A stretch of 4,348 bases of DNA from a virus (Duplodnaviria > Heunggongvirae > Uroviricota > Caudoviricetes). The notes under the pieces are model-generated. The model had not been told where the DNA came from, made no database searches, and saw only the letters and a list, made by a program, of their open reading frames with translations. Numbering within the stretch: position 1 is the first letter of the stretch; every line of letters starts with the position of its first letter. Position numbers and translations under genes: made by a program. This document shows positions 2,941 to 3,818 of the stretch, piece by piece. Location of the stretch: the IMG/VR virus record IMGVR_UViG_2671180884_000017; one strand, given 5' to 3'.

Positions 2941-2969
2941 AACAAAAAACCCTGCCGGAGCAGGGTCAG
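2941..2969 (-). terminator. Rho-independent terminator candidate downstream of the 125-aa CDS
   Basis: Read on the minus strand: CCCUGC-uccg-GCAGGG followed by UUUUUUGUU. The stem is 2950..2955 paired with 2960..2965, and the plus-strand A-run is 2944..2949. It lies about 50 nt after the stop at 3019..3021 and just before the SD of the 218-aa gene. Confidence 0.6.
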
Positions 2970-3018
2970 AATGTGAATTACAATGTTGGTTTAAACACAA
3001 TGATGAAAACTGTAGCAG

Positions 3019-3396
3019 TCAGACCGCTATCCTGAACACCATGAAGCCATCCTCATCATCCGGCATTCGCTCAAAGCCCAGTCGTTTTCCCAGCCGGATA
3101 AATCCCCGCCTTGCCGTATGGAACTCAGCCCAGCGTCCGCCAGCCAGATGGGTTAATGTCTTCACCTCCGGCAGGTAACGCTCAACGCTGTTACTCCCCG
3201 TACACACGCCCAGCAACACCAGAACATAAGGGATACCATCAGCACTGAGCACAGAACGCAGCACCAAAAAGCCATCAGGTGCCTCAAAACAAAACGCCTG
3301 CTTTTTAAGGCAGGCGTCTTTAACTTCATTCATAAATTCAGGGTTGCGGGAATTTCTCACAACACGCTGCATATACCAGAGAATTTTATCGTTCAT
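3019..3396 (-). CDS. Hypothetical protein, 125 aa; candidate accessory (moron) gene immediately downstream of the hok-like locus
   Basis: Start moved from the track's 3420 to ATG 3396..3394 because of the SD AGGTGA (complement of 3401..3406) 4 nt upstream; the ATG at 3420 has no SD. Protein begins MNDKILWYMQRVVRNSRNPEF. The C-terminal GKRLGFERM...DGFMVF is loosely reminiscent of the C-terminal beta-strand region of GNAT-fold proteins, but the protein is too short for a canonical GNAT and I do not claim that assignment. Confidence 0.65.
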   Translation of the reverse strand: MNDKILWYMQRVVRNSRNPEFMNEVKDACLKKQAFCFEAPDGFLVLRSVLSADGIPYVLVLLGVCTGSNSVERYLPEVKTLTHLAGGRWAEFHTARRGFIRLGKRLGFERMPDDEDGFMVFRIAV

Positions 3397-3445
3397 TCTC
3401 TCACCTGAAACGGGTGCCATATCGGCTGAACCTCAGCAACCAGTT

Positions 3446-3467
3446 GACGGGGACTCTCGTCCCCGTC
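3446..3467. other. GC-rich stem-loop between the hok-like stop and the 125-aa gene start
   Basis: Perfect 8-bp inverted repeat GACGGGGA (3446..3453) / TCCCCGTC (3460..3467) with a 6-nt loop. On the plus strand it is followed by GCGGTTTTCC; on the minus strand there is no U-tract after it, so it is not a classical minus-strand terminator. It may be a 3' structural element of the hok-like mRNA or an attenuator. Confidence 0.4.
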
Positions 3468-3476
3468 GCGGTTTTC

Positions 3477-3617
3477 CTACTGCTTACACTGTAAGAACGC
3501 CGCAAACTCCGCTCCCCACAAATTCAGCCGGAACTCACACAGTGAACCGTGCAACATCCAGATGGTGAAGATAACCGTCATGCAAATTGTGACGGTGATG
3601 AGCGATTTTTGCGACAT
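3477..3617 (-). CDS. hok: Hok/Gef-family type I toxin (small membrane-depolarising peptide), 46 aa
   Basis: Not in the ORF track (below its size cutoff). Minus-strand ATG at 3617..3615 with SD GGAGA (complement of 3626..3630) and an 8-nt spacer. Translation: MSQKSLITVTICMTVIFTIWMLHGSLCEFRLNLWGAEFAAFLQCKQ, stop TAG at 3479..3477. It has a single N-terminal transmembrane helix followed by the SLCE-x-R ... G-x-E-x-AAF pattern characteristic of Hok/Gef/PndA/SrnB toxins, and is closest in my recollection to HokA-like members (TWM..SLCEL ... AAFLACK). Confidence 0.8.
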   Translation of the reverse strand: MSQKSLITVTICMTVIFTIWMLHGSLCEFRLNLWGAEFAAFLQCKQ

Positions 3618-3720
3618 AACGCTTGTCTCCTGAATGGAGAGGCGCTAACCTACTACTTGTGAAGGTTGTACGGTCAGGGCCTCGGGTTAACGTTAAAGTT
3701 GACTCGGGGCCTTTCCACAT
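3535..3720 (-). CDS. mok: mok-like leader reading frame overlapping hok out of frame (modulator of killing), 61 aa
   Basis: ORF-track entry 3535..3720 (-). It starts 103 nt upstream of the hok ATG, so it is in a different frame, and it ends inside hok. This is the arrangement of mok in hok/sok loci, where hok translation is coupled to mok. The SD is only moderate (GAAGG, 4-nt spacer). The protein itself (MWKGPESTLTLTRGPDR...) has no recognisable features, as expected for mok. Confidence 0.45.
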   Translation of the reverse strand: MWKGPESTLTLTRGPDRTTFTSSRLAPLHSGDKRYVAKIAHHRHNLHDGYLHHLDVARFTV

Positions 3721-3784
3721 CAGGCCTTCAGGTTCACCCTCCAGCCATCAGCCGAAAGGCACCCACGCATACTGTACGGTTTTT
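3700..3784 (+). ncRNA. sok: Candidate sok-like antisense RNA covering the mok SD and start; boundaries approximate
   Basis: Inference from the hok/mok architecture: Sok is transcribed antisense across the mok initiation region. Candidate plus-strand promoter is TTGTAC (3666..3671), a 16-bp spacer, then TAACGT (3688..3693). A T-run at 3780..3784 could be the 3' end, but no convincing terminator stem precedes it. No structural validation was possible. Confidence 0.25.
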
Positions 3785-3818
3785 GTCTCCTTCCGGCAAT
3801 CCGTATTACAACTGCCTG

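What the first reader, a model, noticed from the sequence alone, without database searches (positions are those of the whole stretch)
2941..3818. Moron-like insertion: hok-like locus, a 125-aa unknown gene and a terminator between tightly coupled structural-type genes
Elsewhere in the window, genes are separated by 2 to 93 nt and are translationally coupled. This block instead carries its own regulatory leader (3721..3818), the hok/mok pair, a GC-rich stem-loop, an independently initiated 125-aa gene (SD AGGTGA) and a strong intrinsic terminator (2941..2969). After that the cluster resumes with the 218-aa gene. This promoter-gene-terminator layout is characteristic of prophage morons and of plasmid or phage-plasmid stabilisation cassettes. 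It suggests the element carries an addiction or abortive-infection-type module inside a structural region.
Basis: inference. Interest (0 to 1): 0.6.

Follow-up and report, generated by a model that had tools for sequence, protein, structure and literature searches.

The report
Hok toxin cassette beside conserved phage gene
The block is not one inserted unit: it is a portable 389-base hok/sok toxin-antitoxin cassette placed next to a conserved phage gene and a terminator in a Shiga-toxin-type phage, which is ordinary, though the conserved gene has two unexpected features.

Summary
The window is the tail and ejection-protein region, on the minus strand, of a short-tailed Stx-type (Sepvirinae) prophage.

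The block has three parts with different histories.

1. Window 3412-3800 is a self-contained HokA-like hok/sok type I toxin-antitoxin cassette. The same 389 nt, with the same ends, occur in 1742 of 5426 complete E. coli genomes, in P2-like, lambdoid and Stx prophages and on plasmids. It is absent from close and distant relatives of this gene cluster. It is a true moron-type insertion, sitting just after the tail-tip gene. It is not the published hokW-sokW locus.

2. The 125-aa gene is not cargo. It heads the conserved ejection-protein gene block in all 29 comparison loci (about ten genera) and in the window, with or without hok. Its predicted fold is GNAT-like.

3. The cassette lacks the terminator it carries elsewhere. 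The next terminator-like signals are a hairpin frozen at synonymous sites inside the 125-aa gene (3284-3317), and then the 2941-2967 hairpin, which is specific to the Escherichia/Citrobacter lineage.

Base composition does not separate the block from its flanks. The moron reading is right for hok and wrong for the 125-aa gene.

The parts
3819..4348 (-). 3' end of the tail-tip (lambda J-like) gene. The ORF runs off the window.
   Evidence: It is 100% identical to the C-terminus of the 588-aa 'phage tail tip fiber protein' of E. coli JNEC-KY174. It gives weak matches to phrog_496 tail fiber and to the lambda TipJ C-terminus.
3412..3800 (-). Portable hok/sok type I toxin-antitoxin cassette, HokA-like, 389 nt.
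   Evidence: The same boundaries are seen in phage P88 and in 1742 of 5426 complete E. coli genomes. It occurs in five or more unrelated contexts. The Rfam sok model matches at 37.1 bits, E 6.5e-6, below its gathering score of 59.
3771..3799 (-). Predicted hok mRNA promoter: -35 TTGCCG, 17-nt spacer, -10 TACAGT, with +1 at about 3764.
   Evidence: Read from the sequence. ATTGCC and TAnAnT are invariant columns in the alignment of 11 cassette variants (A3). Position 1 of the Rfam model aligns to 3764. The site scores 8 of 12, below the cut-off of the consensus scan.
3748..3764 (-). 5' end of the hok mRNA (the tac element, GGGUGCCUUUCGGCUGA). It pairs with the 3' fbi element.
   Evidence: The minimum-energy fold of 3409-3764 pairs the two ends (z = -4.9 against shuffles). 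The same holds in all 11 variants.
3535..3720 (-). mok-like ORF of 61 codons that overlaps hok by 83 nt.
   Evidence: Listed. It is open into hok in only 3 of 11 cassette variants, and is cut to 8 codons in the O157-type Stx phage. Its role is therefore uncertain.
3623..3651 (+). Predicted promoter of the antisense Sok RNA: -35 TTGTCT, 17-nt spacer, -10 TAACCT.
   Evidence: Read from the sequence. The complement of TAACCT and the CTTG of the -35 are invariant columns in A3. Its position matches the Sok promoter region in the Rfam alignment.
3659..3716 (+). Predicted Sok antisense RNA, about 58 nt, ending in a 16-bp hairpin at 3676-3713.
   Evidence: The hairpin folds at -29.6 kcal/mol. The RNA is complementary to the hok leader just downstream of the mok-like AUG. 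Both ends are inferred, not mapped.
3477..3617 (-). hok toxin gene, 46 aa.
   Evidence: Pfam HOK_GEF 33.2 bits against a cutoff of 22. phrog_251 matches at 2.8e-24. The nearest NCBIfam model is HokA, at 38.4 bits, below its cut-off. The ORF is intact in 11 of 11 variants, with dN/dS between 0.26 and 0.62 in the eight informative comparisons.
3445..3468 (-). GC-rich hairpin immediately after the hok stop codon.
   Evidence: It folds at -20.4 kcal/mol. Four base pairs show compensatory changes on both sides among the 11 variants.
3412..3429 (-). fbi element (UCAGCCGAUAUGGCACCC), the 3' partner of the mRNA's 5' end and the 3' end of the cassette.
   Evidence: Homology with P88 ends at 3412, and homology with JNEC-KY174 ends at 3408.
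3019..3396 (-). 125-aa core late gene (p125), with its ribosome-binding sequence AGGTGA at 3401-3406. Predicted GNAT-like fold.
3284..3317 (-). Terminator-like hairpin inside the 125-aa gene: stem ACGCCUGC/GCAGGCGU, 8-nt loop, then UUUUGUUUUG. Synonymous sites are frozen here.
   Evidence: At columns with a conserved amino acid, the commonest codon accounts for 0.95 of sequences inside codons 27-37 and 0.52 outside, across 16 loci (p = 1.1e-5). The motif occurs once in each p125-containing locus.
2941..2967 (-). Intrinsic-terminator-like hairpin (ACCCUGC/GCAGGGU, loop UCCG) followed by U-rich UUUUUGUU (six consecutive U counting the stem-closing one), in the 93-nt spacer between p125 and p218.
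   Evidence: folding energy -16.5 kcal/mol. The identical hairpin follows p125 in Citrobacter braakii L004. It is absent where p125 and p218 are tightly coupled. In L029-L032 a Fic/Phd cassette takes its place.
2269..2925 (-). 218-aa virion (ejection-module) protein. The conserved cluster continues from here.
   Evidence: phrog_611. Its peptides are in the phi24B virion proteome as gp51. The N-terminus begins Met-Gly in all 16 loci examined.

Best explanation
The block is composite.

(1) The hok/sok cassette, 3412-3800. This is a mobile type I toxin-antitoxin unit inserted at the cargo hot spot just downstream of the tail-tip gene. A constitutive promoter makes a stable hok mRNA whose 5' end folds back onto its 3' fbi element and keeps the mRNA untranslatable. 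A short antisense Sok RNA, made from the opposite strand, blocks the leader. Hok, a 46-aa membrane toxin, would be made only when the supply of Sok fails.

(2) The 125-aa gene. This is a core late gene with a GNAT-like fold that heads the ejection-protein module. It was already there when hok arrived.

(3) Termination. In this phage lineage the cassette has lost the terminator that follows it elsewhere. Transcripts from the hok promoter in a lysogen should therefore run into the 125-aa gene. They would stop either at the conserved hairpin inside that gene (about 3285) or at the hairpin at about 2942. This shields the membrane-active ejection genes from constitutive expression. Q-antiterminated late transcription reads through both.

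Shown here: family identity, cassette boundaries, presence/absence pattern, conserved gene order, RNA fold-back, and loss of the terminator. Inferred: promoter activity, transcript ends, and the trigger and biological role of Hok.
For: Identity of the cassette:
- Pfam, PHROG and NCBIfam matches and the Rfam sok match.
- 5'-3' fold-back in 11 of 11 variants.
- Compensatory pairs in the 3' hairpin.
- Conserved promoter hexamers on both strands.
- Intact Hok ORF with dN/dS below 1.

Mobility of the cassette:
- The same 389-nt unit is in 1742 of 5426 E. coli genomes and in P88.
- It is found after ogr in P2-like prophages, between J and stf in a lambdoid prophage, and on a plasmid.

Insertion/deletion pattern:
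- Distance from the tail-tip gene to p125 is -13 to 21 nt in L002, L008, L009 and L013.
- It is 422 nt in the window (hok only), 1014 nt in L029-L032 (no hok) and 2194 nt in Stx phages (p92, p205, lom and hok).
- L029 keeps only a degenerate fbi remnant.

p125 is a core gene.

Terminator:
- It is present 20-30 nt after fbi in 7 of the 8 other contexts examined and absent here.

Literature:
- In phi24B lysogens lom is expressed constitutively, while the downstream LPD5 gene is induced with the lytic cycle. Immunoreactive clones covered the hok and p125 coding sequences (PMC3342100).
- hok/sok biology as shown for the sister locus hokW-sokW (PMC8621323).
Against: - No transcript mapping exists for this locus. 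The hok promoter matches only 8 of 12 consensus positions and was missed by the scan.
- The Rfam sok score is below the gathering threshold.
- The mok-like ORF, needed for hok translation in plasmid R1, is open in only 3 of 11 variants. Some copies may be untranslatable, or this subfamily may work without mok.
- A toxic effect of this particular Hok has not been tested. The only experimental work in Stx phages concerns a different locus.
- The phi24B RNA-seq table omits the p125 gene.
- Base composition does not mark the cassette as foreign.
Confidence: 0.8

Rival explanations
1. The whole block, made of hok/sok, the 125-aa gene and the terminator, is one horizontally acquired moron or stabilisation cassette.
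For: The layout reads as promoter, genes, terminator. The cassette has no terminator of its own, so hok and p125 may be co-transcribed. In phi24B, clones covering both coding sequences reacted with lysogen-specific antiserum.
Against: p125 is present in all 29 loci, including 14 without hok. In Aeromonas phage phiARM81mr, Serratia, Pectobacterium and Citrobacter sp. FP75 it directly abuts the tail-tip gene, and it is normally 2-19 nt from p218. The cassette occurs alone, without p125, in more than 1700 genomes. The terminator hairpin follows p125 in Citrobacter, where a different hok type and an extra gene lie between.
Confidence: 0.04
2. The hok locus is a decaying, non-functional relic, like most chromosomal hok loci of E. 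coli K-12. It persists only as a patch of shared sequence for recombination.
For: The mok-like ORF is broken in 8 of 11 variants, including the common O157 Stx-phage version. The cassette's own terminator is lost here. The window itself is a recombinant whose crossover lies inside the cassette.
Against: The Hok ORF is intact at 45-46 codons in 11 of 11 variants, with dN/dS between 0.26 and 0.62. Promoter hexamers, the 5' end and fbi are conserved, and all variants keep the fold-back. The 3' hairpin shows compensatory changes. Hok has its own AGGAGA ribosome-binding sequence.
Confidence: 0.15
3. The hairpins at 3284-3317 and 2941-2967 do not bound a lysogenic transcription unit. They are partial terminators or mRNA-stability elements of the late operon that set the ratio of tail-gene to ejection-gene expression. 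hok merely landed upstream of them.
For: The hairpin inside p125 is frozen at synonymous sites in all 16 loci, including those with no cargo upstream. A similar hairpin with a T-run lies at 231-250, before the LPD5 gene. Fold induction in phi24B falls from 15.5 for the tail-tip gene to 8.3, 7.0, 7.3 and 5.6 for the genes downstream.
Against: This is compatible with the main explanation rather than exclusive of it. The 2941-2967 hairpin is limited to lineages that carry cargo upstream: Escherichia and Citrobacter, with an analogous hairpin in Yersinia L012.
Confidence: 0.35

Closest known systems
hok/mok/sok (parB) of plasmid R1
   Same: A small Hok/Gef membrane toxin; an mRNA of about 350-400 nt whose 5' end pairs with a 3' fbi element; a GC-rich hairpin after the hok stop codon; and a short antisense RNA made from within the leader. 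The Rfam model of the R1-type leader aligns over its full length.
   Different: It sits in a prophage late operon rather than on a plasmid. Hok has 46 aa and is HokA-like. The mok frame is not conserved in this subfamily. The cassette has no terminator of its own in this context. The Rfam score is below threshold.
hokA, the chromosomal hok locus of E. coli K-12 (NCBIfam NF007290)
   Same: It is the best-matching Hok subfamily. The C-terminal motif EFAAFLxCK is shared; that comparison with the HokA sequence rests on my own recollection of it.
   Different: The score of 38.4 bits is far below the equivalog cut-off of 89, so this is a related subfamily and not hokA itself. It is prophage-borne and widespread.
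hokW-sokW of Sakai prophage 5 (Takada et al. 2021, PMC8621323)
   Same: The same phage type, and the same phage genome in Sp5. It is a type I hok/sok system that was shown experimentally to be toxic, to be neutralised by its antisense RNA, and to aid lysis and phage release after induction.
   Different: It is a different locus. The paper's primers map to VT2-Sakai 57443-57820, while this cassette corresponds to 44531-44909. HokW has 51 aa (MKQQKAM...) and is unrelated at the DNA level. The present locus is not annotated in the VT2-Sakai RefSeq record.
Lambdoid phage morons such as lom and bor (concept of Hendrix, Juhala and colleagues; PMC3594210)
   Same: An accessory gene with its own promoter, inserted between late structural genes just after the tail-tip (J) gene. 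It is present or absent among relatives, and it lies next to lom in Stx phages.
   Different: The cassette's own terminator is missing here, and its composition is not atypical.

Membership tests
hok/sok type I toxin-antitoxin family | Hok/Gef toxin ORF of about 50 aa with a transmembrane segment and a conserved Cys | tested here: met
   Pfam PF01848 at 33.2 bits against a cutoff of 22. phrog_251 at 2.8e-24. The ORF is intact in 11 of 11 variants.
hok/sok type I toxin-antitoxin family | Fold-back pairing of the mRNA 5' end (tac) with the 3' fbi element | tested here: met
   The minimum-energy fold pairs 15-18 of the first 20 nt with the last 35 nt in all 11 variants, although their 3' sequences differ.
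hok/sok type I toxin-antitoxin family | Antisense Sok RNA gene, with its own promoter and terminator, inside the leader | tested here: inconclusive
   Rfam RF01794 matches at 37.1 bits, below the gathering score of 59, E 6.5e-6. The antisense -35 and -10 are invariant and there is a 16-bp hairpin. No RNA data exist.
hok/sok type I toxin-antitoxin family | Overlapping mok reading frame that couples translation to hok | tested here: inconclusive
   It is present in the window (61 codons, 83-nt overlap) but open in only 3 of 11 variants.
hok/sok type I toxin-antitoxin family | Hok is toxic and is neutralised by Sok | not testable with these tools
   Shown only for the separate hokW-sokW locus.
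Prophage moron | Present or absent between genes that are adjacent in related phages | tested here: met
   Met for the hok cassette. NOT met for the 125-aa gene, which is in all 29 loci.
Prophage moron | Own promoter, with expression in the lysogen | tested here: inconclusive
   The promoter-like hexamers are conserved. phi24B clones CM19 and CM23 gave indirect immunological evidence. No transcription start has been mapped.
Prophage moron | Own terminator | tested here: not met
   A terminator lies 20-30 nt after fbi in 7 of the 8 other contexts examined but not here. The next signals lie inside and after the 125-aa gene.
Prophage moron | Base composition distinct from the flanks | tested here: not met
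   The cassette has GC 0.531 and the block 0.508, against 0.517 for the flank. Windows of 392 nt have sd 0.029.
GNAT acyltransferase superfamily (the 125-aa protein) | GNAT alpha/beta fold | tested here: met
GNAT acyltransferase superfamily (the 125-aa protein) | Sequence-profile membership and the Q/R-x-x-G-x-G/A acetyl-CoA loop | tested here: not met
   There is no Pfam, NCBIfam or PDB sequence hit. The loop after strand 56-65 (CTGSNSVE here) has no conserved motif in alignment A2. Strand beta-1 is absent from the model.
GNAT acyltransferase superfamily (the 125-aa protein) | Acyl-CoA binding and transferase activity | not testable with these tools
   Needs biochemistry.
Published hokW-sokW locus | Same genomic locus and sequence | tested here: not met
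   Primer and probe mapping places hokW-sokW at VT2-Sakai 57443-57820, while this cassette is at 44531-44909.

The most novel reading that the evidence does not exclude
The 125-aa gene is neither filler nor cargo. It may be a miniature N-terminal acyl- or acetyl-transferase that modifies the invariant Met-Gly, glycine-rich N-terminus of the next gene's product. That product is the 218-aa ejection protein, which is packaged in virions. If so, this would be a phage counterpart of the N-acylated membrane-penetration proteins of eukaryotic viruses.

In the same reading, the hairpin frozen inside the gene's own coding sequence acts as a translation-sensitive attenuator. It would gate transcription from the tail genes and from the terminator-less hok cassette into the ejection-protein genes.
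Probability: 0.1. Interest if true: 0.75.

Novelty: new member of a known kind. Interest (0 to 1): 0.33.

Why it matters
Stx phages are medically important, and their accessory cargo shapes how lysogens behave.

- This work separates true cargo (a second hok/sok locus, uncharacterised and distinct from hokW-sokW) from a conserved late gene that annotation leaves as 'hypothetical'.
- It defines two cargo hot spots, one on each side of that gene. Across lineages these carry lom, YadA-like adhesins, hok variants and a Fic/Phd toxin-antitoxin pair.
- It shows that the shared cassette serves as a crossover point for swapping tail-tip modules.

The hok part is routine. The GNAT-like gene, its embedded hairpin under nucleotide-level selection, and its constant pairing with a Met-Gly-initiated virion protein are cheap to test. 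They could shed light on how the ejection-protein module of this phage group is made and regulated.

Tried and rejected
- GC and GC3 of the block against its flanks: no difference.
- Consensus promoter scan: it found nothing on the minus strand. The hok promoter was found by reading the sequence and by its conservation.
- I assumed at first that the locus was the published hokW-sokW. Primer mapping rejected this.
- PDB sequence searches with p125, p218 and p421: nothing.
- PADLOC defence models: no hit for p125 or Hok.
- RNAalifold on the 11 cassettes did not recover the 5'-3' pairing, because the 3' register shifts between variants. Folding each sequence separately did recover it.
- Searches for the window's exact arrangement (588-aa-type tail tip, then hok, then Stx-type p125) found none in IMG/VR, JGI metagenomes, 50,697 phage records or 5426 complete E. 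coli genomes.
- Co-transfer of hok with a lambdoid J C-terminus: rejected, since the two share only 29% amino-acid identity.
- The alternative-frame ORF at 3162-3329 (phi24B clone CM23b) as the cause of the frozen synonymous sites: rejected, because the constraint is confined to codons 27-37.
- The phi24B RNA-seq table lacks the p125 gene, so it could not settle expression in lysogens.
- The virion proteome file is truncated, so the absence of p125 peptides is only suggestive.
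Full report
**What the window is.** Megablast places window 1-3800 at 95-99% identity in about 180 short-tailed Stx-converting phages (Sepvirinae: P13374, 933W, VT2-Sakai, phi24B), on the reverse strand. All genes run on the minus strand. In order they are:
- the C-terminal end of a tail-tip (lambda J-like) gene (3819-4348);
- the hok locus;
- a 125-aa gene, p125 (3019-3396);
- then p218, p148, p83 (a glycine-zipper protein annotated 'bacteriocin'), p421 and the start of the roughly 2800-aa LPD5 protein.

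In the phi24B cryo-EM and proteomics preprint, LPD5 is proposed to be an ejection protein. Its supplementary peptide table contains peptides of p218, p148, p83 and p421. The eight p125 peptides I searched for were absent, but the held file is truncated.

**Checking the observation.** Four corrections apply:
- Terminator-like hairpins also occur at 231-250 and inside p125.
- The quoted 93-nt spacing is the block's own spacer.
- The upstream 169-aa ORF is the end of a longer gene.
- The mok-like ORF is not conserved.

**The hok locus is a discrete, portable cassette.**
- Phage P88 and other Xuanwuvirus phages share only window 3412-3800, at about 80% identity.
- A search of 5426 complete E. coli genomes finds the same 389-nt unit, with the same ends, in 1742 genomes at 73-99% identity.
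- Its contexts are unrelated. It follows ogr at the end of P2-like prophages. It lies between the J-type tail-tip gene and the side-tail-fibre gene of a lambdoid prophage. It is on plasmid pUMNK88_Hly and in a degraded island. In Stx phages it lies between lom and p125.

An alignment of 11 variants (A3) shows several conserved elements:
- invariant -35 (ATTGCC) and -10 (TAnAnT) elements;
- an invariant mRNA 5' end, GGGUGCCUUUCGGCUGA;
- invariant antisense promoter elements (TAACCT and CTTG);
- the 3' sequence GGCACCC.

Further evidence on the cassette RNA and protein:
- Each of the 11 sequences, folded on its own, pairs 15-18 of its first 20 nt with its last 35 nt. This is the tac-fbi fold-back that defines hok mRNAs, and it holds even though the 3' partner sequences differ.
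- The GC hairpin after the hok stop codon has four base pairs with compensatory changes on both sides.
- Hok is intact in all 11 variants, with dN/dS 0.26-0.62 in the eight informative comparisons, although overlapping constraints blur that figure.
- Its nearest named subfamily is HokA, below the equivalog cut-off.
- The mok-like frame is open into hok in only 3 of 11 variants, so that defining feature is unsettled for this subfamily.

**It is not the published hokW-sokW.** The primers and probes of Takada et al. 2021 (PMC8621323) map to VT2-Sakai 57443-57820. The present cassette corresponds to 44531-44909, between lom and orf66, where the RefSeq record annotates nothing. Stx phages of this type therefore carry two unrelated hok loci, and only the other one has been tested. 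My searches of the held literature found no study of this one.

They come from E. coli, Salmonella, Citrobacter, Yersinia, Serratia, Pectobacterium, Symbiopectobacterium, Brenneria and an Aeromonas phage. Protein homologues are also found in Dickeya. The results are as follows.
- The order p125-p218-p148-p83-p421-LPD5 is kept wherever the fetched sequence extends that far.
- The distance from the tail-tip gene to p125 varies widely:
  - It is -13 to 21 nt in four lineages, where the genes are directly adjacent.
  - It is about 1.0-1.3 kb where other accessory genes intervene.
  - It is 422 nt in the window, which has hok only.
  - It is 1014 nt in E. coli L029-L032, which have p92 and p205 but no lom and no hok.
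  - It is 2001 nt in JNEC-KY174, which has hok and a YadA-like gene.
  - It is 2194 nt in Stx phages, which have p92, p205, lom and hok.
- A Hok HMM finds hok only in the Escherichia, Citrobacter and Salmonella lineages, and the Hok subfamilies differ between them.
- L029-L032 lack 1245 nt (lom plus the cassette) relative to O157 phages but keep a degenerate copy of the last 20 nt or so, the fbi element. This points to a secondary deletion.

So hok behaves as a moron and p125 does not.

**The second hot spot and the terminator.**
- The gap between p125 and p218 is 2-19 nt in 10 lineages, 60 nt in Citrobacter braakii, 93 nt in E. coli Stx phages and 230 nt in Yersinia artesiana.
- In L029-L032 an inverted Fic/Phd toxin-antitoxin pair occupies this gap and replaces exactly the 62 nt that hold the hairpin. 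In Salmonella L028 three extra genes occupy it.
- The hairpin ACCCTGCTCCGGCAGGGTTTTTT is identical after p125 in Citrobacter braakii, where the rest of the spacer differs. There a different hok and a 215-aa gene lie upstream.
- The hairpin therefore belongs to the 3' flank of p125 in lineages that carry cargo, and not to hok.

**Where do hok transcripts end?** In 7 of the 8 other contexts examined, a strong intrinsic terminator follows fbi within 20-30 nt. In the window and in Stx phages, fbi runs straight into the p125 ribosome-binding sequence. The first terminator-like signal downstream lies inside p125 at 3284-3317. It has an 8-bp GC-rich stem, an 8-nt loop and the tail UUUUGUUUUG.

This element encodes the family's most conserved peptide, DAC(L/R)KKQAFCF. 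It is almost invariant at the nucleotide level in 16 loci whose proteins are only 41-70% identical. At columns with a conserved amino acid, the commonest codon accounts for 0.95 of sequences inside codons 27-37 and 0.52 elsewhere (p = 1.1e-5). The variation that exists falls in the loop, and one stem change is compatible with a G-U pair. Selection therefore acts on the RNA or DNA itself.

I infer, without having shown it, that this element and the 2941-2967 hairpin stop or attenuate non-antiterminated transcription before the membrane-active ejection genes. It is established for lambdoid late operons that Q-modified polymerase reads through such terminators.

Published phi24B data are consistent but not decisive:
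- lom is expressed constitutively in lysogens, while the LPD5 gene is induced with the lytic cycle.
- Clones covering the hok and p125 coding sequences reacted with lysogen-specific antiserum (PMC3342100).
- Fold induction is 15.5 for the tail-tip gene, 3.0 for lom and 8.3-5.6 for p218 through LPD5. p125 is missing from that table (PMC4651098).

**Composition.** GC is 0.531 for the cassette, 0.508 for p125, 0.508 for the whole block and 0.517 for the left flank. All lie within one standard deviation of 392-nt windows. Composition gives no signal either way.

**The window is a recombinant.**
- From 4348 to 3408 it matches E. coli JNEC-KY174-type prophages with a single mismatch, at 3456.
- It differs from P13374 at 21 positions between 3600 and 3774.
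- It is identical to P13374 from 3599 down to at least 2149. In that output, the coordinates of the L001 and L017 rows must be lowered by 400.
- The crossover therefore lies inside the shared cassette, between about 3600 and 3456.
- No record in the collections I searched has this exact arrangement. It is either a natural tail-tip swap through the cassette or an assembly join at a repeat.

**Verdict.**
- The hok/sok cassette is a bona fide accessory, addiction- or abortive-infection-type module at a cargo hot spot inside the structural region. It is a new, untested member of a well-known family.
- The 125-aa gene and its flanking signals belong to the conserved phage backbone.
- What Hok does for this prophage has not been shown. 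It could stabilise the prophage, exclude other phages, or help lysis as hokW-sokW does. I consider release of Hok when the supply of Sok collapses to be the most likely mechanism.
- Late sense transcription through the locus is an additional plausible trigger, and this too is inference.

Noticed in passing
window 3284-3317 (minus strand, inside the 125-aa gene): A terminator-like hairpin followed by a U-tract lies inside the coding sequence. Its nucleotides, including synonymous third positions, are nearly invariant in 16 loci from 9 or more genera (commonest-codon fraction 0.95 inside against 0.52 outside, p = 1.1e-5). Selection therefore acts on the RNA or DNA. It may be a translation-sensitive attenuator at the boundary between the tail genes and the ejection-protein genes.
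   Followed up: partly
window 3019-3396 and 2269-2925: The 125-aa protein is predicted to have a GNAT-like fold whose nearest structural neighbours include many N-alpha-acetyltransferases. The next gene's product, a virion protein, starts with Met-Gly and a glycine-rich stretch in all 16 loci examined. The two genes are 2-19 nt apart in most lineages. They may be an enzyme-substrate pair.
   Followed up: partly
window 3456-3600: The window is a recombinant. It is the JNEC-KY174 type (588-aa tail tip) upstream and the O104:H4 P13374 type downstream, with the crossover inside the hok cassette. This exact arrangement was found in none of the searched collections. An assembly chimera at the repeated cassette cannot be excluded.
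   Followed up: partly
L029-L032 5403-6293; L028 5373-6605; window 2926-3018: The spacer between p125 and p218 is a second cargo site. An inverted Fic/Phd toxin-antitoxin pair replaces the terminator hairpin in some E. coli prophages, and three extra genes sit there in a Salmonella prophage.
   Followed up: partly
window 3535-3720; alignment A3: The mok-like ORF is open into hok in only 3 of 11 cassette variants. A 1-nt deletion cuts it to 8 codons in the common O157 Stx-phage version, while the AUG and its surroundings stay invariant. Either this Hok subfamily does not need mok, or many copies cannot be translated.
   Followed up: partly
VT2-Sakai NC_000902.1 44531-44909 (L015): The RefSeq record of VT2-Sakai (Sp5) leaves this hok locus unannotated. 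Sp5 therefore carries two hok loci, of which only hokW-sokW (57.5 kb) has been studied.
   Followed up: yes
window 231-250 (minus strand): A second intergenic terminator-like hairpin followed by seven T lies between the 421-aa gene and the giant LPD5 ejection-protein gene.
   Followed up: no
window 1559-1810: The 83-aa glycine-zipper protein annotated 'bacteriocin' keeps its place in the ejection module in all loci. Its peptides are in the phi24B virion proteome, where the authors set it aside as a contaminant on the basis of its annotation. It is more likely a genuine membrane-active virion protein.
   Followed up: no
L004 6118-6270; L025 3848-4057; L028 3347-3499: Different Hok subfamilies (50-69 aa as called) sit at the same position after the tail-tip gene in Citrobacter and Salmonella relatives. 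This suggests repeated, independent capture of hok loci at this hot spot.
   Followed up: partly
window 3162-3329 (minus strand, alternative frame): A 55-codon hydrophobic ORF in another frame inside the 125-aa gene corresponds to phi24B clone CM23b of Riley et al. 2012. Synonymous-site conservation does not extend along it, so it is probably not a gene.
   Followed up: yes
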